DNA from: Candidatus Mycoplasma haematobovis
GTDB taxonomy: Bacteria; Bacillota_I; Bacilli_A; Mycoplasmatales; Mycoplasmoidaceae
NCBI RefSeq assembly: GCF_001645765.1
Contig: NZ_LWUJ01000012.1
Span: 147,020-171,019 of the forward strand
Direction: 5' to 3'
Length of the DNA stretch: 24,000 bases
In this document: positions 1-19,825 of the stretch, piece after piece
Numbering within the stretch: position 1 is the first letter of the stretch
Layout: every line of letters starts with the position of its first letter
Notes under the pieces: generated by a model
Told to the model about the DNA's origin: nothing
Seen by the model: only the letters and a program-made list of their open reading frames with translations
Databases searched by the model: none
Made by a program: the position numbers and the translations under genes

Positions 1-1106
1 ACGAGTTAATTAATAAACAAAAAACAGATTTTTCAAAAAGCTTGGTTTCTGCTTACGAAGATAACATTGGGGAACGAGTAAAGTTATTTATTACTAATAA
101 CCCTAAAAGAGAAGTTGATGAAATTGTAAACACTATTTTAGATATTAAGAAAAAAGAATTAGCTCCATATAGAAGTTTTGCGGTTCTCTTTCGTAACTGA
201 TCTTTCGGAAGAAAGTTAAGTGAAACACTTACTGATATGGGTATTCCTTTTTTCTCGGAAGACTTGAAAAATATTTGGAATAAAGAAGAAATTAAAGACG
301 CTTTGGCTTATTTGAGTCTAGCTTTTGAAGATGACATTTTAATAGCTAATAAATCATTGTTAAGGGTAATTAATAAGCCAACAAGAGGTTTTGGTCAAAA
401 GAGTTTGCAACTTTTAAAGTCAGAGGCGAATCGTATTGGTATTACTTTATTGGCTTTAATTAAGAGAAGAGCAAGAAAGGATCCTAAGTGCAGAAAACTT
501 TGAAATATCATAGGAGATATTAGGAAATTGGCAAGAAGGAAGTCAAGTTTGCATGTGAGAATGTCAAAAATTTTAAGAGCGTCTGGTTTAATGGATTATT
601 TTGAAAGGTCTGAACCTCAAAGATTAATAAATATTAATTTGTTTTTGAGTTTTATTTTTGAACTTGAAATAGGTGATTTACGAGAAGCCCTAGACAAACT
701 AAAAGAATTAACTAAATTTACTACAGATAGAGATGCAGTTTATTTGTCGACCGTTCATAGTGCTAAAGGTTTAGAGTTTGATTATGTATTTGTGATGCAT
801 ATGGAGGAGGGGAAATTGCCTTCTAAATATTCTCTAGAGAACGATAAGAAAATTGAGGAAGAAAGAAGAATAGCTTATGTAGCTTTTACAAGGACTAAGA
901 AACTGTTATTTTTATCCTCTTCTGGGGGAGAGGAAAAGATATCACGATTTCTTAAAGATATTGAACCACTTCTTTTGAAAACCATTGATTTATCAGAAGA
1001 ATATGAAGAACAGGATGATGAAGATGACGAGTCTTCAAATGAAGATAGAGGCGGTAGCCTCGAAGAGAATGATACATTATTAGATGATGTCTATGAAGAT
1101 GAATAA
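1..1106 (+). CDS. UvrD/PcrA-family SF1 helicase, paralog 1, C-terminal part (5' end outside window), acidic C-terminal tail
   Basis: The frame is open from nt 3. ORFs 237-503 and 528-1106 fuse across TGA at 198-200 and 501-503. Motif V/VI-like [15 protein letters not shown] and RRIAYVAFTRTKK are present. The product is collinear with the 4431-6505 product. Tail: EEQDDEDDESSNED...DDVYEDE. Confidence 0.9.
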
Positions 1107-1322
1107 ATGGCTAGTATGAGTAAGAAATCAAAATTATTATTAATTTAAGATTATTTGCTTATATTTTGTAGTCTTTGATATTAGTTAACTTTTCTAAAGC
1201 TATTGTATTTAAAAATATCCTTATTTTTAGTGCAAAAGGTTTTCTAAAACTTAAGGCGTTAGTCTATCACAATAAAAGATTCATTTTTTCGGATTTTTCA
1301 GTTGAAGTAAGTAAATTTTTTT

Positions 1323-4300
1323 ATGCTTTTTTGACGAAAAAAGAAAATTGAAATTCAAGAAAAACCTACTATTGTCCCTCAGGTCAAAAGGCCTGAACAG
1401 CCAATTTTAAAAAGGCTCTCACTTAAGACCGTTGAAATTCTTTCAAACTTTGATTTTCCCTTAGTAATTCTTACAGAAAAAGAAGAAATTGGCGAAAGAC
1501 TAGCACAAAGGCGTATTAGGTTATTGTCGGAAAAATTAGGTTTTAAACCGACAGAGATAATAGTGTTTTTTAGCTCTTCTTACAAAGATAAATTTTGGAA
1601 AGAGGCAACTTCATTTTGAAGGGTATTTGGTGGTTTGTGTAATAATGATTTGTCTCAAATTAATGATCCCAACAAGAGAAAAAGACTATTCACACTCGCA
1701 AATTTTGAAAAATATAAGGCTTTTATTATACTTGCACCTCTAGAAAGGGGCAATGTTCTCAACGAATTTATTTCAAGAATTAAAGGAGAACATAATAATA
1801 TTCTTTGGCTTGCTAATCAAGCAATACTGTCCCAGAGACAATTTACACTCCCAGATGGACTGTTCTCATTTTATGGTAAAGGTAAAGCACGTGAATTTAA
1901 GGATGGCACCCTCTTACATGTTGACATGTACAAAAGCGAAGTCTTAAATGGCGAAGAAAAAAGTCCCTCAAATTTTGAAACAAAAGTAACAATTGGCTTA
2001 AATAGTGTTGCATGTCAAAGTGCTCCATTTCAATTATCAGCTGAAATTGGAAAATATGTTTCAGAAGATAATTGTTTTTTATTTTCTGAAAATAATAACC
2101 TTTTAAAAGTAATAGCAGAGGAAAGAATAAATAGAATTTCGAAAAATTCTCAAAAAATAAAGATTATTACTTTTTCTCAAAATTGAAAACCTCATCCAAA
2201 TGTAACCTTAATTAATCCACGTTTCTTAAGTAACTATCAAATTGACAAAGCAAGTTTCGAATCTGTTGTTTTTTACGAAGACATTGACGACAACGTAAAA
2301 AACTGTATTGCTAAATGTTTACAGTTAAATATTAAAGTTTTTGTCGCTTTTAGACAAAAGGATTGAGATATTTTAACTATTTTTAAAGAAAATTGTCGTA
2401 GGTTTATTCTTCTTGATTTTGAATCAAAGTTTGCTGGAGATGCAAAAGTATTTTCATCTCCGCTATTGTCGGTAAATTCCACATCCGCTGAAGTCGGAGA
2501 ACTACAACTAGACGCAGAGGTTAAAAGACACGTTTTCGAAAACAACTGTCTTTTTCTCTCTAAAGATTTAAAGGTCCTAGAAAAAATAACCTCAGTAAGA
2601 GTTAACTATTTGAGTCAATTATCAAAAGAAAAATTAAATGTATTGATAATTTCTCCATTGTTTGAAAACTCTGAAATTTTCGAGCTGAAAGGAGAACTAA
2701 ACATAGTTAAACACGACTTCGAGTCCTTCGTCAAAAATTGTATTTTTAAAGATTCTAAGTTATCTTCGGGCTGGGAAGAAGAGGCAAAGAAACAATTAGA
2801 AAAATTTGATGCTTTTATCTTTCTTGAAAAGCCAAGTAGTCTTTTAAATCTTATTATTGCTACTGCTTTAAAGGTTTGTCAAAGTGTCTTGGTTCTTCTT
2901 CAAAAGCAGTCCAAGGATATTCTTGAAATTTTTAAAGAAAATTGTCGACGATTTACTTATTTAAACTTTGAGGAAGATTTTACGGGAAGTCGCAGTGTAT
3001 TTGAAAGGTCTCTTTTATCAATAGGACCCAAAATTTCTGAAACAAAAGAATTACAATTGGATCCAGAGGTCAAGAAATATATCTTTGAAGATAATTGTTT
3101 TGTATTTTCAAAAAATTGGGATGTTTTAAAGCGACTAGTTCAAGAGAGAATAGATAAAATTAAAAATGAGTTAAGCATAAGAATTGTTTCTCCTTTAAGT
3201 AACTGACAAAAAAACCCAAATATTACTTTGATAAAGCCTGAGGTTTTATTAAACAATCATTCTTTACAACAAGATACTGACTTTAATTATTTGGTCGTTT
3301 GTGAAGACGATGGCGAAAATTTATTGAAATTTATCGCCAGATGCTTAAATTCAAATATTAAAGTTTTTGTCGCTCTTAGAAGAGAATCACAATTAACCTT
3401 GTCGACCTTTAAAGTAAACTGCCAAAAATTTGTCTATTTAAATTTTGACAATGGACTTTTAGCTGAGGCAGAAATTTTTCCAAAAACTTTATCTTCGGAG
3501 ACTTCTAGGATCTTAACTGTTAATGAGCCAATTTCTATTTTTGAAGATTATGTACATCCAGAAAAAAATGTGCAAGATAAAGAAGATCCACTTTTTGATG
3601 AAATAAATCCCGAAGTTGCGGGTGGAAGTTTTGAAGTTAAGAAAAATTTAGAAAATAATCCTTCACCTACAGAAAATCAGGATGAAAAACTGTCAATTGT
3701 ACTTGATATTCAAGGAGAAGAATTTTCAGAAAAATCTTTGGAAGTTATTGAGGATTTTTCCAAACCTTTAGCAATCCTTACAGAAAATGAGGAGGTTAGT
3801 AAAAAACTAGCGTTTGAACGTATTTCCTTGATGAGAAATAAATATGGACTTTCTCCAAATCAAATAATGATTGCTTTCAGTTCTTCGTATAAGGATGATA
3901 GTTCATTAGAAGTAGACTCTTTTTGGAAAACTTGTGAAAATTTATGTGACAATGATTTGCATCAAATTTACCACGAATATCAGAGAAGGAGAATTTTTGA
4001 TAGTGTAAATTTTGAAAATAAATACAAGGCCTTTATCATTATTTCAACTTTTGATTGCAACATTGTTCTAAAGGAGTTTGTTAATAGAATTAAAGGTATT
4101 AGCAATGTTCTTTGACTTGCCTGTTATCCAGATCTTTCAGAAGAAAACTTTTTGTTAATTGATGATTTATTACCTACTTATTCAAAGTTTAAGGCAATTG
4201 AATCAAAGGATGGACAGACTATTAATATTGATTCATTTTCTAAGAAAAAACCAGAAGTCAAATCTACTTTTCTTTTTGAAGAAGCTCAGGAAGAAGATTT

Positions 4301-4424
4301 ACTTTTTGAAGATGCGGAATATGATTCATATTCAGAAGTCGATCCACTTTTTGATGATACCCAAGAGTTTAAAGAGTCAGATCCTCCTGATGACGACGAT
4401 GATATAGATGGCGGACTTTTTTAG
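1323..4424 (+). CDS. 1033-aa repeat protein made of degenerate helicase-like modules (2A'-1A'-1A'-1A'-2A') plus an acidic tail; putative pseudo-helicase
   Basis: ATG at 1323 follows an in-frame TAA at 1308-1310. ORFs 1635-2186, 2466-3206, 3228-4115 and 4152-4424 share one frame and are joined only by TGA codons. I found no TAA/TAG over 1033 codons in roughly 30% GC DNA. Internal repeats are visible at protein level. The stop at 4422-4424 lies 6 nt before the next ATG. Confidence 0.8.
1431..1820 (+). repeat. Module A1 (aa 37-166) of the repeat protein, 2A-like
   Basis: VEILSNFDFPLVILTEKEEIGERLAQRRIRLLSEKLGFKPTEIIVFFSSSYKD...KYKAFIILAPLERGNVLNEFISRIKGEHNNILWLAN is collinear with module A2. Confidence 0.75.
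2028..2426 (+). repeat. Module B1 (aa 236-368), 1A-like
   Basis: FQLSAEIGKYVSEDNCFLFSENNNLLKVIAEERINRI...KIKIITFSQNW...SVVFYEDIDDNVKNCIAKCLQLNIKVFVAFRQKDWDILTIFKENCRRFILLDFES is collinear with B2 and B3. Confidence 0.75.
2502..2975 (+). repeat. Module B2 (aa 394-551), 1A-like
   Basis: LQLDAEVKRHVFENNCLFLSKDLKVLEKI...LNVLIISPLFEN...FDAFIFLEKPSSLLNLIIATALKVCQSVLVLLQKQSKDILEIFKENCRRFTYLNFEE. The second half aligns to B1 without gaps. Confidence 0.75.
3051..3452 (+). repeat. Module B3 (aa 577-710), 1A-like
   Basis: LQLDPEVKKYIFEDNCFVFSKNWDVLKRLVQERIDKI...SIRIVSPLSNW...YLVVCEDDGENLLKFIARCLNSNIKVFVALRRESQLTLSTFKVNCQKFVYLNFDN. Confidence 0.75.
3738..4124 (+). repeat. Module A2 (aa 806-934), 2A-like
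   Basis: LEVIEDFSKPLAILTENEEVSKKLAFERISLMRNKYGLSPNQIMIAFSSSYKD...KYKAFIIISTFDCNIVLKEFVNRIKGISNVLWLAC is collinear with A1. Confidence 0.75.
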
Positions 4425-4430
4425 AAAATC

Positions 4431-6505
4431 ATGTCCTCAGATAAATCTAAAGTAATATTAAGATCTTTAAATCCACAACAAAGAGAGGCAGTAACTGCAC
4501 CCCTTAAACCGATATTAGTAGTAGCGGGTGCCGGAACAGGAAAAACGACAGTTCTGATAAAGAGATTTGAGTATCTAGTTAAAGAGAAGAATATACCTCC
4601 AGAAGAAATAATACTTGTTACTTTTACTAAGAAGGCTGCTACCGAAATAAAGAGAAGAATTTCACGTTTATTTCCGGATCCAGAGTTTTTGAAAGATGTG
4701 AGAGTCTCTACTTTCCATAAATTTTGTAGAGAAATTCTTGCCGAGGAAGGAATAAATTTTAAAGTTTGTTTTGAAACTAAAGCAATAGGATGTGTTAAAG
4801 AAGCTATTCAAAAATTAAATCTTCCGCTTAAATCTAATAGTGAATGTGCCAGACTTATTTGAAAAGTGAAGTGATTTCAAAATGTATCAGGAAAACCTGC
4901 TACTGATTGGGATTTAATAAAGGCTGGTAGGATTATTACACGTTCAAATGATGATACTATAGCAAAAAATATCCCTTTAAGGAATTTAAAAAAATTTGGG
5001 CGAAGTATGAAGATATTCTTAAGTCACAAAATTCGCTTTATTATGATGACATATTATTTAGAACTGATAAAATATTAGAGGATGAATCAAAAAGAAGTAA
5101 ATGGGATGGAAAAATAAAAGCAATTTTGTTTGATGAGTTTCAGGATATAGACCCAATACAATTTAGAATTATTTCCAAGCTTTCACAAGATAATAGGAAC
5201 ATTTTCTGTGTAGGAGACCCAGATCAAGCTATTTATGGTTTTAGAAATGCGTTACCAGAGGCTTTTCAAGACTTTAAGAATTATTTTGATGATGCTGAAA
5301 TTGTAAAACTTGAAATTAATTATCGTTCAACTGTTCAAATTCTTGATGTTGCTAATGAGTTAATAAATAAGAAAAAAAACATTTTCTCTAAGTATTTAAT
5401 TCCAGGCTCTAAAGAAAAGAATGGTGAAAAAGTAAGGCATTTTATTACTACTAATCCGGAAAGAGAAATTGAAGAAATTACCAATACTATTCTAAGCTTA
5501 CATAAGCAGAAAAAAGTTCCTTTCAAGAAATTTGCTGTTTTATTTCGTAATTGGTCTTATGGGAGAAGGGTAAATGAAGTGCTTACACAAAAAAGAATTC
5601 CTTTCTTTTCAGAGGATTTGAAGAGACTTTGAAATAGGGAAGAAATTAAAGACTCATTAGCTTATTTAAATATAGCTTTTGAGGATGATATTTACAATGC
5701 CAATAAATCCCTTCTTAGAGTAATTAACAAACCAGCTAGAGGATTCGGCGCAAAGTTTTTGGAAATTTTGACCAATGAAGCAAGAGAATTAGGAAGACCA
5801 CTAATAAAACATATTGTTTCAAAGGAAAAGGTAAATAGCGAACAGAAATGTGAGGATCTTTGCAATATCCTTAAGACTATTAGAAATATAGCCAAAGATA
5901 AAAAAAGACCGCTACACAATAGAGTTACAAGAATCTTAAGAGAGTCTGGATTAATATCTCATTTTCAAAAAGTAGACCCTTTAAGAGTCTCAAATATAAA
6001 TACCTTTTTACAATTGATTTTTGATCAAGATTTAAATGATCTTGAGCAAATTAAAGAAAGATTAAGAGAACTTACAAAATATACAGCAGATAGAGATGTT
6101 GTTTATTTAACCACTATACATGGTGCTAAAGGTTTAGAGTTTGATTACGTATTTGTAATGCATATGGACGAAGGGAAAATTCCTTCAAAGTTTACATTGT
6201 TAGAAAAGGAACCTAATGAATTCGAACAAAGAATTAATGAAGAAAGAAGATTAACTTACGTCGCTTTTACTAGAGCCAAGAAAGCATTGTTCTTATCTTC
6301 GGCTTTTGGACAGGCAATGATTTCTAGATTTGTTAAAGATGTTGAAACTAAAATATTTTCAATAGTGGATTTATTTGCTGATCCAAGCGACGATATGCTT
6401 GATGATCAGCTTTCTGAGGAAGAAATGTACTCAGATGAAGATTTACAGAGAGGTAGTGATCTTGAAGAAGCTAAAGACTTACAGGATGATGACGAAGATG
6501 GATAG
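4431..6505 (+). CDS. UvrD/PcrA-family SF1 helicase, paralog 2; full length only with a -1 shift (or one extra A) at the A6 tract 4964-4969
   Basis: All helicase motifs are present: [60 protein letters not shown]. The N-terminal part (4431-4967) is one frame ahead of the rest (ORFs 5126-5632 and 5759-6505, which fuse across TGA at 5630-5632). Acidic tail: DDMLDDQLSEEEMYSDED...DDDEDG. Confidence 0.85.
4962..4970 (+). other. Frameshift site GCA AAA AAT (A6 homopolymer; also fits an A_AAA_AAT slippery heptamer)
   Basis: Frame 0 reads ...ITRSNDDTIAKNIPLRNL and stops at TAG 5076-5078. Frame -1 reads KKYPFKEFKKIWAKYEDIL. Joining the two as TIAK-KYPF gives a gapless match to paralog 3 ([29 protein letters not shown]). 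Confidence 0.8.
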
Positions 6506-6705
6506 GAAATAAAAAATGGAAGGCAGTGTAATTGTTTTTTTAGATTTGGAACTGGATTAGTGCTCTATATTAGCTTCGGCTTTTGCAAGGATAGGATGAG
6601 GAACAGAGGGGTATTTTTCGTTATTATAAAAGGGGTGGAATAGTCTTGTTGCTCTTACTTTTAGGTTGGTCACACCATCCTATTTAGCTCTCTGGGGGGT
6701 GAGTT

Positions 6706-7311
6706 ATGATTTCAAAACTAAAACTCCCCATTTTAATTTCTCTTTTTTTTTCATTTTCAATGAGTAGCTATGTTTATTTTTCATTAAAGCGTGAACAATT
6801 AATATCTTCTGGAAAAGGAATAGGATACAGATTTGTTGACAAGTATTATCCGCCAGATAAAGCACCAGAAATCTTTAACACAATTTTTACAAATAACCAA
6901 ACAAAAATAAAAAAGTTACTGAAAATAAGTAGTGGAAAAGAATTACAAGGTTGATGTCAAAATGCTACTAAAGGAAAATGGGAATCTGACAGTGGAAAGG
7001 TGCTTATGCACGGATTAAAGTGATGCAGCTTGCCTGTTCATGTAGTTTTATTAAGAAAAAGTAATAAGTTGGATGAAACTAAGTTTGGTAAGCTTTTTCA
7101 GGATGTTGTAGATTCAAAAATTGAATTATTTGTTAAAGAACGTTTCCCCAATTTATGAGATAGCAAAGATCACTCAACACAAGAGAATAAAGCAAAACTT
7201 CTTAGGGGTGTAGTTGCAGGATTTTGTAAAGAGTCCTTAAGTGATGCTTGAACTTTTTATTATGAAAGTCAACGAAACGCTATTGATTCTTTATGTCCGG
7301 AGGGAACATAA
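6706..7311 (+). CDS. Hypothetical secreted or membrane-anchored Cys/Trp-containing protein (201 aa)
   Basis: ATG is preceded by the SD-like GGGGGTGAG. N-terminal hydrophobic segment LPILISLFFSFSMSSYVYF. ORF 6706-6954 extends across four in-frame TGA codons to TAA at 7309-7311. Confidence 0.65.
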
Positions 7312-9082: not shown

Positions 9083-10921
9083 TTAATGTACATTTTTTCC
9101 AAAAAAGGAAGAATTCTTTCTGTATTCTGAACCTTTTTTTTGCACTTCTTTTTGTATTTCTAAATAGCTATTCTTTTTCTTTAATTTCTCAGGAAATTCT
9201 AAGAATTCATCTTTACTAACAATTTCAATTAATTTATCCAAATAAGCCCTATGTAAACTGTAATAATTATCAAAAAAAGTTTCTTTACTCTTTATCTCTA
9301 TTGGTCTCTCTTTTTGAAAAGCACTATTATCGTATGCTGTTGTTATGCCCTCAATAGTATTATTTAATAAATTAAAAAAATCTCTTGTTTCTTCAGAAAA
9401 AGTAGTGCAATCTATAGGCAACTCTACTCTTCATTTTTCACTACTTTCCAATTGATTTAAATTCTTCTCTAAATAAGGAATTAAAGGAAAGTACTTAGAA
9501 AATAATGTACCAAAGAGACTTATTGAAAATTTAGTAGTAGGAGTAATATTGACTCTTACTGTTTTTGTAGGCTCTTGTAATAAAGAGCACATAATAGCAT
9601 TGGAATAACGCTCATATTTCTTATTAATAGCTTCTTGATGTTTAGTTTCAGTAAATAACTTTATTTCTTTATAAAAGTCAAAGATTATTCGTATGGAGCT
9701 ACTAGCATAAGCTAAATCTATACCATGTCTTATCTTAATTTCATCATTATGATCTTGAAATAAGAACTCTAAAGAGTTAGTAATAAGCATTTGCAAATTA
9801 ATTATTTCTTCCAAATTACTCTTCTTTGCAATATATTTTTTGTATCAACTAAAGAAATGAATAGGATTAAGTAGTTTTTCTTCTGCTTCTTTTTGATTAC
9901 TCTTTAAATATTCATCAATATCTTTATGATCACTATCTAATAAATCTACTACTTGAACAGAAAAACCATTTTGAAGTAATATTTTGAAAGTATTAATGGT
10001 TGAATTTCAACCAGCATTATCGTTATCAAAACAACATACTATATTCTTTGAAAATTCTTTCAAAGTACTTAATACTATTGAATTCAAAGAAGTACCCATA
10101 CAAGCAACACTATTCCTAATACCAATCATTTCTGAACTAAGTACATCAAAAAAGCCTTCATATAAATAAATAGGTTTTTGACTCTCTAATGCTTGAATAT
10201 TGAAAATAGTAGCTTTCTTACTAAATAGTACACTAGATCTAATATTTAAATACTTAGGAGTAATATCACCTAATGCTCTTCCAGAAAATCCAACTATTTG
10301 ATTATCTTTATCACATATAGGAAAGATAATTCTATCTCTATAGAATGGCTCCTTTATTCCTTGCTTATTGTAAGAAAAGATACCTGCTTTTTTGAAATCC
10401 TCTTCTTCAAATTTCTCACTTTCATTAGCATCAGAGTAGCTCTTAAAGATACTCTCTAAGATATCTTCTTTAGGAGCATAACCAATTTGATATTTATCAA
10501 TAATCTCTTTATCTAAGCCTCTATTAAGTAAATAATCTAATTGTTCTTTATTATTACTGTTGTACAAACATTTGTTATAGGCCATTGCAGTAAGTTCATT
10601 AATTTTGTATAGTTTGGAATAAGAATTAGAGCTATTTGATAAGTAATCATTAGGATTTAAATTAAGTATTTGTGCTATTTTTTTGATGGCAGCAACATAA
10701 TTACATTTCTCTATTTTCATCACAAATGCAATAGCATCTCCAGAGATATTGCATGAAAAACACTTAAATATATTCTTTTCTGGAGTTACAGAAAGAGAAG
10801 GACTAGTATCTTGATGAAAAGGACAAACACACCAATGATTAGCTCCTTTTTGTACTGTCTTTACAAAGTGCTGAACAACCTTTAATATTGGAAAATTAGA
10901 AGTTGGCTTTGTAGTTTGCAT
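9083..10921 (-). CDS. dnaG: DNA primase
   Basis: ORFs 10007-10921, 9431-9814 and 9083-9421 are in one frame and joined by TGA codons. Zinc ribbon CPFHQDTSPSLSV...FKCFSCNISGD. TOPRIM-like YLYEGFFDVLS and CCFDNDNAG. 612 aa. Confidence 0.9.
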
Positions 10922-12167
10922 TTTCTAGCTCTTCAAGACTTATTCTTTTTTGTTTCATAGTATCTCTATCTCTAATAGTAAATGTTAAATTATTGGGAGT
11001 TGATTCTTGATCTATAGTAATACAATAAGGAGTACCAATAGCATCATTCTTTCTATATCTCTTTCCTATAGAACCTTTATCCATGAAGGCCACTGAAATA
11101 CCTTTCTTAATTAAAGATCTAAATAAATCATAAGCTAAATCTTTTTCATTTTTTGTTAGAGGCAAAATAGCAAAAGAATAAGGAGCTAATTCAGACTTAA
11201 TCTTTAATACTTCTCTACTCTCTCCATTCTCTAATTCCTCTATTACATAAGCATCAGAGACTACCGCAAATAAGAGTCTATTTAAACCAATTGAATGCTC
11301 TACTATATATGGAATATATTTCTCATTAGTCTGGGGATTCAAATAGCTCATATCTTTATTAGAGCTAGTTTGATGCGCTTTCAAATCAAAATCTGTTCTA
11401 TTTGCTAATCCTCATAATTCACCTCAACCATGGGGGAATTTAAACTCTATATCTACAGATCTTGAAGAATAGTGAGCTCTATCTCCTTCACCAATCTCAA
11501 CCACTTTAATATTTTCTTTGTTAATAGCTAATTCCTCAAGTAAGAATGATTTCATCTCTTCCACACACTTCTCAAAACACTTATTAGCTTTATCTTTATG
11601 CACAAATCATTCACATTCCATTTGTTCAAATTCTTTAGTTCTGAAAATAAAGTGTGAAATAGTTACTTCATTTCTGAAAGCTTTACCTATTTGACCTATA
11701 CAAAAAGGTATCTTAGCATTGGAAGCGCGAAGAATATTTTTGAAATTTATGAAAATGGATTGAGCTGTTTCTGGTCTTAAATAGTTATCTTCTTGGGTTT
11801 TGAAAATTAAATTAAAGGATTTACTATCTGTTCAATCAATAACTCCACAATTAGGGCACTTTTGATCTTCTGGCAAATGATCTTGTCTATATCTCTTTTT
11901 GCATTGCTTACAGTCTACTAAGACATCGTTAAAGTGTTGCATATGCCCAGAAGCTTTTCATACATTTTCTGAAGTAAATATTGAAGCATCTAAGAAATAA
12001 GCATTCTCTCTACTACTAATAAAGTACTGTTCTCAAGCTCTCTGTATATTCTTCTTTAATAACACTCCTAAATGGCCATAATCGTAATATCCACTCTTCC
12101 CCCCATAAATTTCATTACCAATTATCACAAAGCCGTATTGCAATAGGTAGTTATTGATATTTGACAT
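10896..12167 (-). CDS. glyQS: Glycine--tRNA ligase (alpha2 type)
   Basis: ATG at 12167. 423 aa read through in-frame TGA codons. Class II GlyRS-like blocks: [76 protein letters not shown]. Overlaps dnaG by 26 nt. Confidence 0.9.
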
Positions 12168-12208
12168 ATTGAAAATTTTAAGTTTATTTGGTTTGTAGGC
12201 TAATTTAA

Positions 12209-12275
12209 AAAGTGGTTGAAAATCCCGAAATAATTAAAAAAAATAAAAAAAGTAGCGAAAAGTGGTAAATTGTGG
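12209..12275 (+). promoter_or_regulatory. Putative MraZ operator: direct repeats AAAGTAG / AAAGTGG / ATTGTGG at an exact 10-bp period, plus an upstream AAAGTGG
   Basis: Boxes at 12249-12255, 12259-12265 and 12269-12275, with another at 12209-12215 (40 bp upstream). The array ends 24 bp before the mraZ ATG, in the glyQS/mraZ divergent intergenic region. Confidence 0.6.
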
Positions 12276-12298
12276 TTAAGATTTTTAGTGAATAATAG

Positions 12299-12748
12299 AT
12301 GTTGCGAAATGAAAAAGGAATTGTCTTTATTGGAGAGCATGAAGTAACAATGGATAGCAAGAACAGAATTACTATCCCTAGTAAGTGGAAAGAAAAATTA
12401 GGACTAGAGATAGTTATCTCTAAGCATTACGATGACTGCTTAGCAATCAGAACTCCAGTTACTTTTGAAAATTATTGTGAAAAATTAATGAGTTACGATG
12501 AGAATGATATTAAGGCTAGAGCATTAAGAAGAGAGACATTAGGTAGATCACATGAAATTGCATTAGATAAATGGTATAGATTTGTAATACCAGGAAGTCT
12601 AGCTACTAATCTTCAGAAAGGTACGCTAGTAATGGTAGGGGTAGGGGATTTAATAGAGGTATGAAGCAAAGAAGCACTGAAAAATTGAAGAGACGATGAA
12701 AGAAATCGTTTGGAAACCGTGGGGCAAGAGCTGTCGCAACAAAAGTAA
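12299..12748 (+). CDS. mraZ: Transcriptional regulator MraZ
   Basis: Two SpoVT/AbrB-like halves: MDSKNRITIPSKWKEKL and LDKWYRFVIPGSL. ORF 12299-12664 extends across two TGA codons to TAA at 12746-12748. Confidence 0.85.
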
Positions 12749-12750
12749 AT

Positions 12751-13686
12751 ATGTCACCATACGTTGCTCATTTTCCAGTAATGGCTAAAGAAACAGTGGG
12801 ATATTTAGCCCACTCTACTGACGGCCTTTATTTAGATTGTACTTTTGGAGCTGGCGGGCATACTAAACAATTACTTTCTGTAATTTCTCCTAATGCTAGA
12901 GTAATAGGACTAGATTTAGATCAAAGAGCAGTTGAAATAGGTAAAGAATTAGAGAAAGAAGATAATAGATTTTCAATAATACATATGAATTTTGCTGACT
13001 ATGTTAAGTACAGAAAAGAACATGACTTACCTAAAGCAAAAGGAGTTATTTTTGATTTAGGGGCTTCTACTATGCAACTTAAAGATAAAGAAAGAGGCTT
13101 TAGTTACAAATATGATGCCCATTTAGATATGCGTATGGATCAATCTTCTTCTTTAACTGCTGCAGAAATATTGAATACTTATCCAAGAAGAGAGCTTAAA
13201 GATATCTTTAAGAAATATGGAGATATTGCTAATCCAGATAAATTAGTTAATTTAATAAGTCTTTATAGAAAACAAAATGATTTCATTGAAACTACAGAAG
13301 TATTTAAAGCTATAGTTGAAGAAGCTTTCTGAAATATAGATGCTATTAAATTTAATAAAGTATTAAGAAAATGTTTTCAAGCTCTAAGAATAGCTGTTAA
13401 TAAAGAGTTTTCTTCATTAGAGAAAGCTCTAGAGTCATTAAATGAAATTCTTGAAGTAGGAGGAATTGCTTGTATTATTACTTTTCACTCTGGAGAAGAA
13501 AGAATAGTTAGAGCTTGAAAAAGTAAATATTGTGACAATATAGAGATTCAAGACTATTCACAAAATATTCTTAATAAATTTAAATTTGTTACTGAGAAAT
13601 ATATAGTTCCTGAAGAATATGAAATAGTAGAGAATTGAGCTTCTAGATCTTCAAAATTATGAGTTATTCAAAAAGTTAAGGATTAA
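12751..13686 (+). CDS. rsmH: 16S rRNA (cytosine1402-N4)-methyltransferase RsmH/MraW
   Basis: HFPVM...[12 protein letters not shown]...[10 protein letters not shown]-like, [22 protein letters not shown]. The ORF extends across four TGA codons to TAA at 13684-13686. Confidence 0.9.
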
Positions 13687-15511
13687 ATTCTAGTAAGTTA
13701 CTTAATTCTTTAATATAGGGAGAGACTTTTCCAGAAGAACTTAAGAATAATTTTTTCTTTGCTCTAGTAAAGGCCACATAAGCCAATCTTCTTTCTTCCT
13801 CGGCCTCTAAAGAATATTTGTAAGGCAACTTTCCTTCATCTAATTTAATTACAAAAACATAATCAAACTCTAGCCCTTTTGCACCATGTATAGTTCCTAT
13901 ATACAATTGATCCTTCTCAACCCCATATTTAGTCATTTCTTCAATATTCTTTTTGATAACATCCAAATCAAACTTCTCTTCATCTAATACATTCTTTAAT
14001 ATCGCTTTAGCTCTATCATATTTTTCCATATCTCTTTCTGACCAATAACTTCAGTAACCACATTTAGTTAATACATTATTTACTTGCTCTACAATACTTA
14101 ATTCTTGATTTACTAAAGAATTAAGTAATTCAGAAAAAGCTTTCACAGCATAATCTTTTGATTTAGTTATTGCTTCTCTCAAAGAGATATTCTCAACTTT
14201 AGCAGTATTCTTTAATATTTCTTGTTTCTTTATGCCTATCCCTCTATTTGGTTTATTAATAACTCTTTCAAGCGCTCTATCTACTTTTTTTGCATCTTTT
14301 TCAAATGCTACTGAAAGATATGCAATCATATCTTTAATTTCTTCTCTTCTTCAAAAGGCATAAAGCTCTCTAGAGATGAAAGGAATTCTTTTGGCTAGTA
14401 ATAAATTAGTTAATTGATTACCAAAACTATTATTTCTGTAAAGTACTGCACAATTCTTAAGAGCAATATCTTCTTCAGTCTGCAATTTAATAATAGTATT
14501 AACTACATATTTGTCTTCTTCTCCCGCTAAATAACAACTTACTTTATTCCCATCAGGATTATTAGTATTTAATTCTTTTGAAAATATACCTCTATTCTTA
14601 TTAATTAAAGTATTAGCTGTCTCTAAGATTTGAGGAGTAGATCTGTAATTAAGCTCTAATTTAAATAATTCTGCATTTTTGTAATGTTCTTTAAATTCTT
14701 CAAAAGAATTCTTTAGAGCCCCTCTAAAGCCATAAATAGCTTGATCTGGATCTCCTACACAAAAAATATTTGCTTCTTTTTCAGTTAATTTCTTAATTAT
14801 TTCAAACTGTATTTCATCAATATCTTGAAATTCATCAAATAATACTGCCTTAAATTGCTGATTTCATATCTCTCTTATTTGTTCGTTATTTAATAATTCA
14901 TTAGCTTTCAAAAGAATATCATCAAAATCTAATTGATTATGTTTCTGTAATTTCTTTTCATAGCTGTTGTAAACAGCTTTCATTTCTTTATATGGAAATT
15001 TATCAAGCACTTTACTTTCTTTAAATCTAGTTATTTCTTTTCCAATATTAACTAAGTCTGCTTCTGTAAAGTCTTTAGTTCTTATTTTTCATTTAATTTT
15101 CCTAATAATATCAGTAGCAAACTTAATATTAGTAATTGATAACTTTAGTTCTTCAGTAATTATTTCTCTTATGTAATATTCAGTTCTCTTAGGAAAACAA
15201 ATAGCAAAACTAAAGCCACTAGACTCTAATAAAGTTTTGGCAAATTTATGAAAAGTAGAGATGTAAGTATTCTTTAGATCTAAATTATTAATAGTTTGCT
15301 CTATTCTTTTTCTCATTTCTTGAGCAGCTTTCTTAGTGAAAGCAATAGCAAGAATATTATTTGGACTTATTCCATATTCTTTAACTAAATATTCATATCT
15401 CTTTACTAATATTGTTGTTTTGCCTGTACCTGCTCCAGCAACAACTAATATTGGTTTAAGAGGTGCAGTTATAGCTTCTTTTTGTTGTTTATTTAATTCT
15501 TCTGTATTCAT
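13676..15511 (-). CDS. UvrD/PcrA-family SF1 helicase, paralog 3 (611 aa, no acidic tail)
   Basis: ORFs 15089-15511, 14051-14329 and 13676-14029 are in one frame. I translated the gaps and found only TGA codons. Motifs [51 protein letters not shown] and [10 protein letters not shown] are present. Its 3' end overlaps the rsmH 3' end by 11 nt (convergent). Confidence 0.9.
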
Positions 15512-15564: not shown

Positions 15565-15888
15565 ATGCGAGTAAGATTTAAGAAGCCTTTAATTGTGCTG
15601 GGTAGTGCTGGGGCAGTTGGAGGAGCTGGTTATTATGCTTTTTCCAGATGATCTAGCGATGAACTTACTGTAGCACCTAAAGTTAGCAATGCTCCTAAAT
15701 GATTTAATAAACTTAAAAATTCCAAAAAAGAATCACTTCCTGTAGATTTACAGGCGGCCCAAATTTGAACAAAATTGGGAGATACACCGGATCATCAAAG
15801 AGTAGCAAGCAACTGAATTGAATTGTTTTGCTCAGAGGAGCCAAAACCTAGCAATAATGAGTATTGTAATAAGGAAAATATAAATTAA
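15565..15888 (+). CDS. Small hypothetical membrane-anchored protein (107 aa)
   Basis: MRVRFKKPLIVLGSAGAVGGAGYYAF, followed by a Trp/Cys-containing region. Four in-frame TGA codons. Divergent from helicase 3 (53-bp spacer). Overlaps the MTase 3' end by 4 nt. Confidence 0.5.
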
Positions 15889-16862
15889 TTTATAGGTGTG
15901 CCATCTAATACTTTTAAGATCTCTTTAGCTATTGCATAAATTACTGGTACTGAGACAGAATTACCAAATTGTTTGTAAGCTTGATTGTCGCTTACAGGTA
16001 TTAGATAATTATCAGGAAATCCTTGTAGTCTTGCGGCCTCTCTAGGCGTTATCTTTCTAGGATTTTTATTTTCCTGCTCTATTAGTATCTCACTACCATC
16101 TTTGTAATATCTTGCAGAAATGGTATTAGTATATCTACTGTTCTTGTTGAATAATGAAAAACCAAACCCTCTACCTTTTGCTATATGTTTGGCTTTTCTT
16201 CTTTGATGCCCTTCCCAAAGTAAATCAGAAATAGTATATTTACTATCTACATTCTGCTCTAATATATTGCCTACATAAGTACTTTCTAAAGTTGGAGTGG
16301 GCATTTTGAATTCTTCATAACTGCTAATCAATCCTTTATTAAAGCCAACAATATATATTCTTTCTCTATTTTGAGGCACTCCAAAGTCTCTAGCTCTAAG
16401 TATAGAATAAGTAACATAGTAGTTTAATTTTTCTAAATTATCCTTAATTATTTTGAATGTTTCGCCTTTATTATGCGTCTTTAAATTCTTTACATTTTCA
16501 AGAAGAAATGATTTTGGTTTCTTATCTTCAAGAATTCTTATTATTTCAAAAAATAATGCTCCCCTTTCATCATTAAAGCCTTTTTTCTTGCCTGCTTGAC
16601 TGAATGCTTGACAAGGAAATCCAGCTACTAATATTTCGTGATCATCAATATCATTAGTATTTATTTCTCTAATATCTCCGGCCGTATCTTCACCAAAATT
16701 AGTTTTGTAAGTGATTTTTGCAAATTTATCAATTTCACTACTAAACACTACTTTAACTTGTCCAGTTAAGTGAAAGCCTAATCTTGTCCCACCAATACCA
16801 GCAAATAAATCAATCATTTTATATTTAGCTTTTTCATTATTAGGGAAAGGTATTGATTTCAT
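15885..16862 (-). CDS. DNA (cytosine-5)-methyltransferase (type II R-M modification subunit)
   Basis: Canonical C5-MTase motifs: I DLFAGIGG, IV GFPCQAFS, VI ENV, VIII QNRERIYIVG, X GNSVSVPV. TRD contains TISARYYKDGSEILI. Confidence 0.92.
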   Translation of the reverse strand: MKSIPFPNNEKAKYKMIDLFAGIGGTRLGFHLTGQVKVVFSSEIDKFAKITYKTNFGEDTAGDIREINTNDIDDHEILVAGFPCQAFSQAGKKKGFNDERGALFFEIIRILEDKKPKSFLLENVKNLKTHNKGETFKIIKDNLEKLNYYVTYSILRARDFGVPQNRERIYIVGFNKGLISSYEEFKMPTPTLESTYVGNILEQNVDSKYTISDLLWEGHQRRKAKHIAKGRGFGFSLFNKNSRYTNTISARYYKDGSEILIEQENKNPRKITPREAARLQGFPDNYLIPVSDNQAYKQFGNSVSVPVIYAIAKEILKVLDGTPIN

Positions 16863-16910: not shown

Positions 16911-17822
16911 ATGAACGAACAATCTTTAAAGGAATTTAAAAAATTTGTTAGAGAATGACAAAAACAGCGTTCTAAAGCGGCTTGAGAATTAATTTGTGAA
17001 TTATTTATTGAGTTAGGTTTTAATAAACAAAATAAGAATTATTTTTTAGAGAATGCTAGTACTGTTATTGAAGAAATAAGATGAAAAAGTTTTAAAGAAT
17101 TGAAAAATAGAGAGATATTTTCATTAGATCATGTATTTGAATATTTATTTAAAGAAGCTAAAATTAGTGATCCAAAAACTAAAGAAATAATTGTTAATTT
17201 CTTAAAGCAATTTCATGAACATCTTTATTCATTGAATTTATCCTTAACTCAAAGCAGAAGATCAAGAACCGGAAAGGAATTTGAAAGTATTATTGAATTA
17301 ATTTTTTCTAGTAGCAATATTCCCGTAAATAATCAAAGTGTTATTAAAAATAAAGATTCAAAAAAATTAATAGATTTTATCTCTCCTAGCTCTGTAGAGT
17401 ATCAAATAGACAAAGATAAAGTGATCTTTATTAGTGTAAAGACCACTTTGAGAGAAAGATGGCAAGAAGTAATAGATGAAATAAATAGAGCAGAAATAAC
17501 AAAGATTTTCTTAATAACTTTAGATGAAAAATTAACTAAGAATTTATTACATACTTGTAAACAATTAAATATACAGTTAGTAACGCTTAAATCTGTTAAA
17601 GAGAAATATTATTTTAATAGCAATGAAATAATATCTATTGAAGAGCTATTAAATATTTGCAAAAACAACTTGGTTTATTGGATTAATTATGACTATTCTG
17701 AAAAAGAAAGACAAGAAATTAGAGAAATATTGAATAAACAATTAAAAAAATATTCACAGTTACAAGAAATAAAGGAATACTACTTAAGAAAAATTAAAGA
17801 AGTATCTGAATCTAATCAGTAG
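16911..17822 (+). CDS. Putative type II restriction endonuclease (PD-(D/E)xK-like)
   Basis: ORF 17100-17822 extends upstream across three TGA codons to ATG 16911 (303 aa). It is divergent from the MTase (48-bp spacer). Nuclease-like pattern: RTGKEFESIIE ... IDFISP ... VIFISVKTTLRERWQ. Confidence 0.55.
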
Positions 17823-19749: not shown

Positions 19750-19825
19750 TGGCACACCTGATAGGATTCGAACCTACAGCCTTTTGATCCGAAGTCAAAT
19801 GCTCTATCCGTTGAGCTACAGGTGC
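19750..19825 (-). tRNA. trnR: tRNA-Arg (anticodon UCG), CCA encoded
   Basis: Reverse complement GCACCTGTAGCTCAACGGATAGAGCATTTGACTTCGGATCAAAAGGCTGTAGGTTCGAATCCTATCAGGTGTGCCA folds as a cloverleaf. Anticodon stem TTTGA/TCAAA with loop CTTCGGA. T-arm GGTTCGAATCC. Confidence 0.9.

What the first reader, a model, noticed from the sequence alone, without database searches (positions are those of the whole stretch)
1..6505. Helicase / pseudo-helicase / helicase cassette, apparently produced by tandem duplication and tightly coupled
The gene order is helicase paralog 1 (ends 1106), a 216-bp spacer, the repeat protein (1323-4424), a 6-nt spacer, then helicase paralog 2 (4431-6505), all on the + strand. 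The two helicases match closely in conserved blocks. An example at DNA level is gctaaaggtttagagtttgattatgtatttgtgatgcatatgga vs gctaaaggtttagagtttgattacgtatttgtaatgcatatgga. Paralog 1 starts outside the window, so the unit [repeat protein + helicase] may recur upstream. The 6-nt junction suggests co-translation of the repeat protein with helicase 2, meaning a two-component module rather than unrelated neighbours. UvrD-like helicases paired with a large partner are a recurring layout in anti-phage systems (for example GajB with GajA in Gabija). The partner here has no recognisable nuclease or ATPase motif.
Basis: partly seen in the sequence, partly recalled or inferred. Interest (0 to 1): 0.65.

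Follow-up and report, generated by a model that had tools for sequence, protein, structure and literature searches.

The report
Helicase copies paired with dead-motor partners
In a cattle blood parasite (a hemoplasma), duplicated DNA-helicase genes each sit directly behind a lineage-specific partner gene built from inactivated motor-like domains; this gene pair has not been described before, its function is untested, and some copies are already decaying.

Summary
The window uses genetic code 4 and comes from 'Candidatus Mycoplasma haematobovis'. It carries the C-terminal part of helicase 1 (3-1106), a 216-nt spacer, a 1033-aa repeat protein (1323-4424), a 6-nt spacer and helicase 2 (4431-6505).

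Helicase 2 is not one open frame. A -1 frameshift at an A6 run (4962-4970) splits it, although all its helicase motifs are intact.

The predicted upstream repeat of the unit exists. Full-length helicase 1 is preceded, again by 6 nt, by a 238-aa paralog of the repeat protein.

The repeat protein is laid out A-B-B-B-A' plus an acidic tail ending GGLF. The B domain models as a RecA-like P-loop fold without a Walker A loop. The exhaustive search of about 1.8 billion cluster representatives (of roughly 15 billion proteins) found one homolog, the 238-aa paralog.

A related hemoplasma has the same layout with other copies truncated. M. haemofelis lacks the array at the syntenic site and keeps only the helicase 3 ortholog.

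No Gabija partner or other defence signature was found. My best reading is a lineage-specific helicase plus dead-motor cofactor module undergoing duplication and decay. The cofactor role is an inference. Novelty is moderate.

The parts
3..1106 (+). C-terminal 367 codons of helicase 1. The full protein is P0056, 677 aa, with all SF1 motifs intact and an acidic tail. Its start lies upstream of the window.
   Evidence: Table-4 ORF. Pfam UvrD_C E 5e-46. Full-length sequence and motifs.
1107..1322 (+). 216-nt AT-rich spacer between helicase 1 and the repeat protein. No RNA family was found and no convincing terminator.
1323..4424 (+). Repeat protein, the 'dead-motor' partner (P0001, 1033 aa). Its layout is A, B1, B2, B3, A' and an acidic tail ending DDDDDIDGGLF.
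   Evidence: ORF. Internal repeats at 27-48% identity with E down to 7e-31. No hit in Pfam, NCBIfam, PADLOC or PDB sequences. The chance of no stop in 1033 codons at this base composition is 5e-30.
1413..1967 (+). Domain A (aa 31-215). It is 44% identical to A'.
2016..3527 (+). Three tandem B domains (aa 232-390, 392-573, 575-735). The predicted fold is RecA-like/ASCE P-loop, with the Walker A loop replaced by 'SKN' and an invariant acidic residue at the Walker B position.
   Evidence: Alignments. AlphaFold2 model with pLDDT 79.5 and pTM 0.79. Foldseek matches to VirB11, PilT, a RuvB-like helicase and RadA at E about 3e-4 and TM about 0.55. Matches to viral P-loop NTPases.
3723..4277 (+). Domain A' (aa 801-985). 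It shows weak, in-register similarity to the helicase N-terminus, where GAGTGKT is replaced by TENEEVS.
   Evidence: hhalign P 0.0046, A' 1-51 aligned to helicase 13-63. Smith-Waterman against helicase 3 gives z 2.9, reached by 4 of 300 shuffles. The AlphaFold2 model failed with pLDDT 45.
4278..4421 (+). Acidic C-terminal tail. It holds a DPLFD motif and the conserved tip D-I-D-G-G-L-F-COOH.
   Evidence: The same tip occurs in P0002 (DISGGLF) and in the relative's partner (SMGGLY).
4425..4430 (+). 6-nt junction (AAAATC) between the partner's TAG stop and the ATG of helicase 2. No Shine-Dalgarno-like sequence is present.
   Evidence: A 6-nt spacer also occurs at the P0002-helicase 1 junction.
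4431..4967 (+). Helicase 2, N-terminal reading frame (Q motif, Walker A, motif Ia). If read on, this frame stops at 5078.
4962..4970 (+). Frameshift site GCAAAAAAT (an A6 run). Seven A's, or a -1 ribosomal slip, would restore the frame.
   Evidence: The junction DDTIAKKYPFKEF aligns to helicase 1 DEEIRNKYPFESF.
4967..6505 (+). Helicase 2, -1 frame (motifs II-VI and an acidic tail). Public annotation carries only truncated products of 459 and 496 aa.
13676..15511 (-). Helicase 3 (611 aa, intact, no acidic tail, no partner gene). It is the paralog kept at the syntenic position next to rsmH in M. haemofelis (61% identity).

Best explanation
The region is part of a tandem array found only in the bovine-hemoplasma lineage. 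Upstream of the window, the order is P0002 partner, 6 nt, helicase 1. Inside the window it continues with a 216-nt spacer, the repeat-protein partner, 6 nt, and helicase 2.

The helicases are duplicates of the hemoplasma UvrD/PcrA-type SF1A helicase that is represented by the conserved, partner-less helicase 3. They lack the PcrA C-terminal domain and carry acidic tails instead.

Each partner consists of one to five catalytically dead RecA-like domains followed by an acidic tail with a conserved GGL[F/Y]-COOH tip. There is no Walker A loop. The domains were probably derived from the helicase's own motor domain 1A.

The array evolves by duplication, gene conversion and decay. In this genome helicase 2 carries a single frameshift. 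In the related hemoplasma the orthologs of helicase 1 and helicase 2 have each lost their N-terminal half, while a different partner-helicase pair is intact.

Inferred mechanism, not shown here. The partner is translated together with its helicase by termination-reinitiation across the 6-nt gap. It then acts as a non-catalytic cofactor. Its dead motor domains would dock on the helicase, and its acidic tail and aromatic tip would act as a docking or DNA-mimicking peptide. This would activate or restrain a monomeric UvrD-like helicase that is poorly active on its own. The likely setting is recombination or repair in the paralog islands of these genomes.
For: Anatomy and paralogy.

The unit recurs. 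P0002, a 6-nt gap and the start of helicase 1 lie on L002, and that start matches the N-terminus of P0056. Locus tags A6V39_04225 and A6V39_04240 place both on the same 212-kb contig.

The partner family is tiny and always helicase-linked. An exhaustive phmmer search of 1.84 billion representative proteins returned only P0002.

Conserved tail tip and tight junctions in three units from two species.

Partner domains. The B domain models as a RecA-like fold without a P-loop. The relative's 199-aa partner aligns to helicase motifs II-III with hhalign probability 75% and E 2.6e-5, and it has a sub-threshold PF00580 hit. A' aligns in register with the helicase N-terminus at P about 0.005.

The partner ORF is maintained. 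Its repeats have diverged to 27-48% identity, yet 1033 codons carry no stop (P about 5e-30).

The helicases are catalytically complete. They form a hemoplasma clade with helicase 3 and the M. haemofelis protein P0057.

The syntenic relative shows the same layout with different copies truncated. M. haemofelis has only the helicase 3 ortholog at this site.

A similar theme appears in 'Ca. M. haematohominis'. There, acidic-tailed helicase paralogs are tightly flanked by degenerate-helicase repeat proteins of 1000-2000 aa.

Literature: UvrD/PcrA homologs flank paralog islands in M. haemofelis (PMC3146833).
Against: There are no expression, interaction or activity data, so the cofactor role is pure inference.

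Sequence similarity of the window's A and B domains to the helicase is not significant on its own.

Foldseek's best matches are generic RecA-like ATPases, not UvrD domain 1A. The A-domain model failed.

The helicase paired with the large partner in this window is frameshifted. This particular pair may therefore be non-functional, or the partner may serve helicase 1 or act alone.

Genome-collection scans found no further loci, so the distribution rests on two Logan contigs and three NCBI genomes.

L001 is identical to the window and stops before the frameshift, so the frameshift has no independent confirmation.
Confidence: 0.5

Rival explanations
1. It is an anti-phage or anti-mobile-element defence system, either Gabija-like or a new type based on a UvrD-like helicase. 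The helicase would sense or unwind foreign DNA, and the large partner would be the effector or sensor.
For: The helicases hit GajB and DRT-associated helicase models in PADLOC. The array sits in a variable locus that holds type I restriction S-subunit genes in M. haemofelis. A type II restriction-modification pair lies beside helicase 3 in the window. Fast turnover and a narrow distribution are typical of defence genes.
Against: Neither partner has any PADLOC hit, and no GajA-like ATPase-Toprim nuclease or any nuclease domain was found. The GajB scores (about 235-256 bits) are lower than the PcrA/UvrD scores (about 357-390 bits), so they only show family-level similarity. The helicases are recent duplicates of a conserved hemoplasma UvrD/PcrA-type gene. 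From general knowledge, no phages of hemoplasmas are known.
Confidence: 0.1
2. It is by-product debris of segmental duplication in hemoplasma paralog islands. The helicase copies and their partners were co-amplified with neighbouring surface-protein paralogs, and they are drifting to pseudogenes with no function as a module.
For: Helicase 2 and helicase 4 are frameshifted. The relative's helicase 1 and helicase 2 orthologs are truncated, and a B-domain remnant is fused to one of them. Small membrane-protein paralogs are interspersed. UvrD/PcrA copies are known to flank paralog islands.
Against: The partner has an uninterrupted 1033-codon ORF although its repeats are old (P of no stop about 5e-30). 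Helicase 1 and the relative's 686-aa helicase are intact with all motifs. The tail tip and the partner-to-helicase junction are conserved across paralogs and species while the rest of the tail diverges. Each genome keeps at least one intact pair.
Confidence: 0.2
3. The break in helicase 2 is regulatory rather than a defect. Either the A-run acts as a phase-variable on/off switch, or a -1 ribosomal or transcriptional slip on A-AAA-AAT produces some full-length helicase 2.
For: The shift lies exactly in a homopolymer, and the heptamer A AAA AAT has the X XXY YYZ form. Every motif downstream is intact. The assembly came from Illumina HiSeq reads and SPAdes, so a homopolymer miscall is unlikely (PMC4939789). 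From general knowledge, homopolymer phase variation is common in mycoplasmas.
Against: Six A's is short for efficient replication or transcription slippage. No stimulatory structure or Shine-Dalgarno-like element was examined or is evident. The zero-frame stop is 37 codons downstream. Helicase 4 is broken at a site that is not a homopolymer, and the relative's ortholog is simply truncated. Both fit ordinary decay.
Confidence: 0.12

Closest known systems
RecBCD (RecB with RecC) and AddAB: a UvrD-like SF1A motor paired with a partner that is a degenerate, non-motor helicase fold
   Same: An active UvrD-family helicase is encoded next to a partner built from helicase or RecA-like domains that have lost their catalytic motifs. 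The partner probably arose by duplication of the motor.
   Different: Neither protein here has a nuclease domain. The partner is a string of one to five single RecA-like domains rather than a full 1A-1B-2A-2B helicase body. It carries an acidic tail with a GGLF tip. There is no sequence similarity to RecC or AddB. The genes occur as a multi-copy decaying array, not as a core operon.
PcrA/UvrD/Rep housekeeping helicases and their activating partners (RepD, MutL, RNA polymerase)
   Same: Domain content (PF00580 plus PF13361), all seven SF1A motifs, and best family-model scores against PcrA and UvrD. From general knowledge, these helicases are weak as monomers and need a partner or self-assembly.
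   Different: Scores are far below the equivalog cut-offs (357-390 bits against 911-1144 bits). The proteins are 611-691 aa long, and their alignments stop at position 610-627 of the 725-position PcrA model. The C-terminal RNA-polymerase-binding domain is therefore missing, and helicases 1 and 2 have an acidic tail in its place. At least five paralogs sit on one contig.
Gabija (GajA with GajB)
   Same: A UvrD-like helicase is encoded next to a larger partner, and PADLOC GajB models match the helicases.
   Different: No GajA-type ATPase-Toprim nuclease is present, and the partner has no PADLOC hit. In canonical Gabija gajA precedes gajB, as the partner precedes the helicase here, but gene order is the only likeness. 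The helicases are closer to PcrA than to GajB.
UvrD/PcrA copies flanking paralog islands in hemoplasmas (Barker et al. 2011, PMC3146833; Guimaraes et al. 2014, PMC3958358)
   Same: The organism group is the same, multiple UvrD/PcrA-like genes are present, and they sit next to small membrane-protein paralogs, a C-5 methylase and restriction-modification genes.
   Different: Those papers list the helicase copies but do not describe a dedicated partner gene, its dead-motor domain repeats or the conserved tail. That pairing is what is new here.
Acidic C-terminal tails ending in an aromatic residue, such as the bacterial SSB tip (...DDDIPF)
   Same: A long acidic, probably disordered tail ends in a conserved hydrophobic or aromatic C-terminus (DIDGGLF, DISGGLF, SMGGLY). 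From general knowledge, in SSB such a tip is a docking peptide for genome-maintenance proteins.
   Different: There is no OB fold. The tip has GG where SSB has P. The resemblance comes from memory and was not tested.

Membership tests
UvrD/PcrA/Rep SF1A helicases (helicases 1, 2 and 3) | UvrD-helicase N-terminal domain (PF00580) and UvrD_C domain (PF13361) above the gathering score | tested here: met
   Helicase 3 scores 230 and 176 bits. The two frames of helicase 2 together cover both domains. The helicase 1 C-terminal part scores 158 bits for UvrD_C.
UvrD/PcrA/Rep SF1A helicases (helicases 1, 2 and 3) | Conserved motifs Q, I (GxGxGKT), Ia, II (DExQD), III, IV, V and VI | tested here: met
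   All are present in helicase 1 (P0056) and in frameshift-corrected helicase 2. Helicase 3 has all but a strict match to my motif Ia pattern.
PcrA or UvrD equivalog (housekeeping ortholog) | Score above the NCBIfam equivalog cut-off, and presence of the C-terminal domain | tested here: not met
   The PcrA model gives 357-390 bits against a cut-off of 911. Alignments end at position 610-627 of the 725-position model.
Intact protein-coding gene (helicase 2) | A single uninterrupted reading frame from start to stop | tested here: not met
   There is a -1 frameshift at the A6 run 4962-4970. Public annotation holds only truncated products of 459 and 496 aa.
Gabija | A GajA partner (ABC-type ATPase fused to a Toprim nuclease) adjacent to the helicase | tested here: not met
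   The repeat protein and P0002 have no PADLOC or Pfam hit.
Gabija | A helicase that is specifically GajB-like rather than generically UvrD-like | tested here: inconclusive
   GajB models score 235-256 bits, and PcrA/UvrD models score higher at 333-390 bits. No phylogeny including GajB was made.
RecBCD/AddAB-type motor plus dead-helicase partner | The partner has a helicase or RecA-like fold without catalytic motifs | tested here: inconclusive
   The B-domain model is RecA-like with no P-loop. The relative's partner aligns to helicase motifs II-III at E 2.6e-5. The window's A and B domains are not significantly similar to the helicase by sequence, and the A model failed.
RecBCD/AddAB-type motor plus dead-helicase partner | A PD-(D/E)XK nuclease domain in at least one subunit | tested here: not met
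   No nuclease family was detected in the helicases or the partners.
Two-gene co-translated module | Partner and helicase are adjacent with a minimal spacer in independent copies or species | tested here: met
   The spacer is 6 nt in the window, 6 nt at P0002-helicase 1 and 20 nt in the relative. Co-transcription and co-translation themselves cannot be tested here.
Two-gene co-translated module | A single transcript across partner and helicase, and physical interaction between the two proteins | not testable with these tools
   This needs RNA-seq of infected blood and recombinant proteins.
SSB-like C-terminal docking tail | An acidic tail with a conserved aromatic C-terminus | tested here: met
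   23 of the last 60 residues are D or E. The tip GGL[F/Y] is conserved in three proteins.
SSB-like C-terminal docking tail | Binding of the tip to a partner pocket | not testable with these tools
   This is a resemblance from memory only.

The most novel reading that the evidence does not exclude
Hemoplasmas have evolved a previously undescribed class of SF1-helicase cofactors by duplicating and inactivating the helicase's own motor domain. These cofactors are strings of dead RecA-like domains with an SSB-like acidic, aromatic tip. They would assemble on and switch UvrD-type helicases that drive recombination among the paralog islands used for antigenic variation. The giant degenerate-helicase repeat proteins next to helicase paralogs in 'Ca. 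M. haematohominis' would be a second, independently diverged form of the same system.
Probability: 0.15. Interest if true: 0.7.

Novelty: new variant of a known kind. Interest (0 to 1): 0.45.

Why it matters
UvrD/PcrA-type helicases are nearly inactive as monomers, and how partners switch them on is an active question. A natural cofactor made from dead copies of the motor domain, with a conserved docking tail, would be a compact new case. It could be tested with recombinant proteins even though the organism cannot be cultured.

For hemoplasma biology, the finding ties the long-noted extra UvrD/PcrA copies at paralog islands to a specific partner gene. It also shows that these arrays turn over quickly between close relatives. 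That is relevant to how these pathogens reshuffle their surface-protein repertoires.

If the module is only decaying duplication debris, the finding is just a caution for annotation: code 4, a frameshifted helicase, and an orphan ORF.

Tried and rejected
1. Sequence searches for the repeat protein found nothing. This covers Pfam, NCBIfam, PADLOC and PDB sequences. The word-indexed search of 5.8 billion proteins returned only the protein itself. The exhaustive phmmer search returned one real homolog, P0002, and one spurious RTX-like hit, P0003, which I rejected on inspection.

The queries were the repeat protein and helicase 2. The back-translated patterns were too specific, and the source genome is apparently not searchable there. 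Synteny in M. wenyonii and other close relatives could therefore not be surveyed.

3. Thin profile-profile comparisons of the A and B domains against the helicase were not significant. Pairwise Smith-Waterman tests with shuffles were at most z about 3. I do not claim sequence-proven homology for the window's own domains.

4. The AlphaFold2 model of domain A, made from a two-sequence alignment, failed (pLDDT 45) and was not used.

5. An independent check of the helicase 2 frameshift failed. The Logan contig L001 is identical to the window but ends at 4526, where a sequence shared with helicase 1 begins.

6. Promoter and terminator scans gave no more hits than shuffled sequence, so they say nothing about operon structure.

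7. The Rfam, tRNA and tandem-repeat scans found nothing within 1-6505.

8. The Gabija and other defence-system reading was considered and set aside for lack of any partner signature.
Full report
**Source and genetic code**

Under table 11 the region breaks into short ORFs. Reading TGA as Trp (code 4) gives long ORFs. G+C content is about 30%.

Protein look-ups place the window on a 212,034-nt contig of 'Candidatus Mycoplasma haematobovis', also called 'Ca. M. haemobos'. This is an uncultivated bovine hemoplasma with A6V39_ locus tags. Its draft genome was assembled with SPAdes from Illumina HiSeq reads (PMC4939789).

**Checking the observation**

The layout is as described:

| Feature | Coordinates |
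|---|---|
| Helicase 1, C-terminal part | 3-1106 |
| Spacer (216 nt) | 1107-1322 |
| Repeat protein (1033 aa) | 1323-4424 |
| Spacer (6 nt) | 4425-4430 |
| Helicase 2 | 4431-6505 |

- Both quoted 44-mers exist at 762-805 and 6125-6168, with none expected by chance.
- DNA blocks of 124-135 nt are 73-81% identical between the two helicases.
- The proteins are 53% identical over the windowed part and 59% over the full length.
- Both carry the Pfam UvrD-helicase and UvrD_C domains.

One correction is needed. 4431-6505 is 2075 nt, which is not a multiple of three. The frame from 4431 stops at 5078, and the rest of the helicase is in the -1 frame, which is open from 4931. The switch maps to GCAAAAAAT at 4962-4970. 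One more A, or a -1 slip, gives a 691-aa protein. Its junction DDTIAKKYPFKEF aligns without a gap to DEEIRNKYPFESF in helicase 1. All SF1 motifs on both sides of the break are intact. Public annotation holds only truncated products of 459 and 496 aa.

I could not confirm the A6 run independently. The only other assembly of this locus, Logan contig L001, is identical to the window and stops at 4526.

A third paralog, helicase 3, lies at 13676-15511 on the minus strand. It is 611 aa long and intact.

**The repeat protein**

Self-comparison gives the layout A (about aa 13-219), B1, B2, B3 (about 208-735) and A' (about 788-986). An acidic tail follows and ends in ...DPPDDDDDIDGGLF. A and A' are 44% identical. 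The B copies are 27-43% identical.

The protein has no hit in Pfam, NCBIfam, PADLOC or PDB sequences.

An AlphaFold2 model of B3, built from a four-sequence alignment, was unexpectedly confident (pLDDT 79.5, pTM 0.79). Foldseek matched it only to RecA-like/ASCE P-loop ATPase domains. In the PDB these were VirB11, PilT/PilF, an archaeal RuvB-like helicase and RadA, at E about 3e-4 and TM about 0.55. In the viral library they were P-loop NTPases.

In the model, strand 1 (CFVF) runs through 'SKN' straight into helix 1. There is no glycine-rich Walker A loop. An acidic residue after the Walker-B-like strand is invariant. The B domain is therefore best described as a dead P-loop/RecA-like domain.

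For the A domains the evidence is weaker:
- hhalign places A' 1-51 on helicase 13-63 in the expected register, at P 0.0046. Here GAGTGKT is replaced by TENEEVS, and [14 protein letters not shown] corresponds to YGLSPNQIMIAFSS.
- A Smith-Waterman score against helicase 3 is reached by 4 of 300 shuffles.
- The A-domain model failed (pLDDT 45).

**Relatives of the partner and recurrence of the unit**

The exhaustive search of 1.84 billion representative proteins found one true homolog, P0002 (238 aa, E 1.8e-7). P0002 is one B-type domain plus an acidic tail ending in DDDEDISGGLF. It is A6V39_04240, on the same contig.

On Logan contig L002, P0002 is followed by TAG, 6 nt and the ATG of a helicase beginning [32 protein letters not shown]. 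That is exactly the N-terminus of P0056, the full-length helicase 1. P0056 is 677 aa long and has all motifs.

The order is therefore P0002, 6 nt, helicase 1, 216 nt, repeat protein, 6 nt, helicase 2. Both members of this partner family sit directly in front of a helicase paralog.

A further paralog, helicase 4 (P0005, A6V39_04225), lies a few genes upstream. It is also frameshifted. A more distant UvrD-like gene, P0060, is on the same contig.

**Comparison with other hemoplasmas**

A 14-kb Logan contig from a related hemoplasma (L003) shares the right-hand context: S20, DUF5385, dnaG, glyS, mraZ and rsmH. Its left-hand content, in order, is:
- a B-domain remnant abutting a helicase 1-like gene that has lost its N-terminal half;
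- a membrane protein with an acidic tail;
- a 199-aa protein ending ...SMGGLY, followed after 20 nt by an intact 686-aa helicase with an acidic tail;
- a helicase 2 ortholog (68% identity) that has lost its N-terminal half.

The 199-aa partner aligns to the helicase profile across motifs II-III (IIVFDEFCDD...IIFGVVN against ILFDEFQD...NIFCVGD). hhalign gives probability 75% and E 2.6e-5, and a second co-linear match covers the N-terminal region. It also has a sub-threshold PF00580 hit. This is the clearest evidence that the partners derive from helicase domain 1A.

In M. haemofelis the syntenic locus runs trx, ppa, DUF6856, helicase, rsmH, mraZ, glyS, dnaG..., S20 and then hsdS genes. It holds only the ortholog of helicase 3 (61% identity) and no array.

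In 'Ca. M. haematohominis', two acidic-tailed helicase paralogs are packed between repeat proteins of 1000-2000 aa that have no Pfam hit. The N-terminal 420 residues of those proteins align co-linearly with the helicase, at hhalign E 0.002 for helicase 204-436 and E 0.015 for helicase 10-82. They show no detectable similarity to the window's partner.

A rough neighbour-joining tree puts all these helicases in one hemoplasma clade. Helicases 1, 2 and 4 appear there as lineage-specific duplicates.

**Interpretation**

Shown:
- There is a tandem, partly decayed array of UvrD/PcrA-type helicase genes.
- Each of two copies in this genome, and one in a relative, is immediately preceded by a gene for dead RecA-like domains with a conserved acidic tail and aromatic tip.

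The partner ORF is maintained. It has 1033 codons and no stop, although its repeats are old (P about 5e-30 at this composition). The tip and the junction are conserved while the rest of the tail diverges.

Inferred:
- Translational coupling across the 6-nt gap. No Shine-Dalgarno-like sequence is visible there.
- A non-catalytic cofactor role for the partner. This is by analogy with RecC and AddB, which partner UvrD-like motors, and with the general need of UvrD/PcrA/Rep monomers for an activating partner. Both points are established knowledge, not tested here.
- A possible link to recombination in paralog islands. This rests only on the reported position of UvrD/PcrA copies at island borders in M. 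haemofelis (PMC3146833; PMC3958358).

**Rivals**

- Defence system. PADLOC finds nothing for either partner. The GajB hits of the helicases are weaker than their PcrA/UvrD hits. Only the variable-locus context and a nearby restriction-modification pair speak for it.
- Neutral duplication debris. This fits the frameshifts and truncations, but not the long intact partner ORF, the intact pairs or the conserved tip.
- A regulatory frameshift or phase switch in helicase 2. This is possible but weakly supported, because A6 is short and other copies decay by other routes.

**Verdict**

The helicase 2 frameshift was missed, and the Gabija analogy is not supported.

The partner family is an orphan with two members in the public protein space searched. 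The pairing of a helicase with a dead-motor partner is a new variant of a known design, not a member of any named system.

Interest is moderate. The function is untested, the organism is uncultivable, and part of the array is decaying.

Noticed in passing
window 4498-4527 and onward; L002 1777-1806: Helicase 1 and helicase 2 share an exact DNA tract starting at GCACCCCTTAAACCGATATTAGTAGTAGCG. Their proteins are nearly identical over residues 20-66, against 59% overall. Both Logan contigs break exactly there. This suggests recent gene conversion between the paralogs.
   Followed up: partly
L004 1-2538 (Logan SRR10198112_2518; A6V39_04225): A fourth helicase paralog (P0005) lies a few genes upstream of the window on the same contig. 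Its Walker A-containing N-terminus is in a different frame from the annotated 543-aa product. The frameshift is near ACAGGGAAATAAAG, which is not a homopolymer. Motif III is altered to VGNPNQ.
   Followed up: partly
L007 10159-18169; L008 1-7981 and 10084-13209 ('Ca. Mycoplasma haematohominis'): Repeat proteins of 1000 to more than 2000 aa with no Pfam hit tightly flank acidic-tailed UvrD-like helicases. Their N-termini look like degenerate helicases (for example SGWNKQET in place of GAGTGKT; hhalign E 0.002 and 0.015, co-linear). This may be a parallel pseudo-helicase expansion.
   Followed up: partly
window 15885-16862 (-) and 16911-17822 (+): A divergently arranged type II restriction-modification pair sits beside helicase 3. 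It consists of a C-5 cytosine methyltransferase (PADLOC MTase_II, E 1e-128) and a type II restriction enzyme (E 6e-54).
   Followed up: partly
window 3585-3599 and 4341-4355 (repeat protein aa 755-759 and 1007-1011); P0002 aa 211-215; L003 partner aa 183-187: A short motif DPLFD (also DPNFD and DALFS) recurs about 25 residues before the C-terminal tip in the partners, and once in the linker before domain A'. It may be a second linear docking motif.
   Followed up: no
L003 2449-2931: In the related hemoplasma, a 160-aa ORF with an N-terminal membrane segment and an extremely acidic tail ending ...DSDDGFEGY lies just upstream of the partner-helicase pair. It has no counterpart in the window.
   Followed up: no
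window 6688-7311 (+); L002 116-733 (-); L003 41-658 (-) and 7096-7731 (+); L004 2017-2538 (-): ORFs of about 200 aa with an N-terminal membrane segment are interspersed with the helicase units. They resemble the surface-protein paralogs described for hemoplasma islands.
   Followed up: no
window 19750-19825 (-): This is the only RNA gene found in the window: tRNA-Arg (anticodon TCG).
   Followed up: yes
window 9083-13686: A conserved core block holds dnaG (-), glyS (-, overlapping dnaG by about 29 nt), mraZ (+) and rsmH (+). It anchors the synteny with the relative and with M. haemofelis. The helicase array lies on its variable side.
   Followed up: partly
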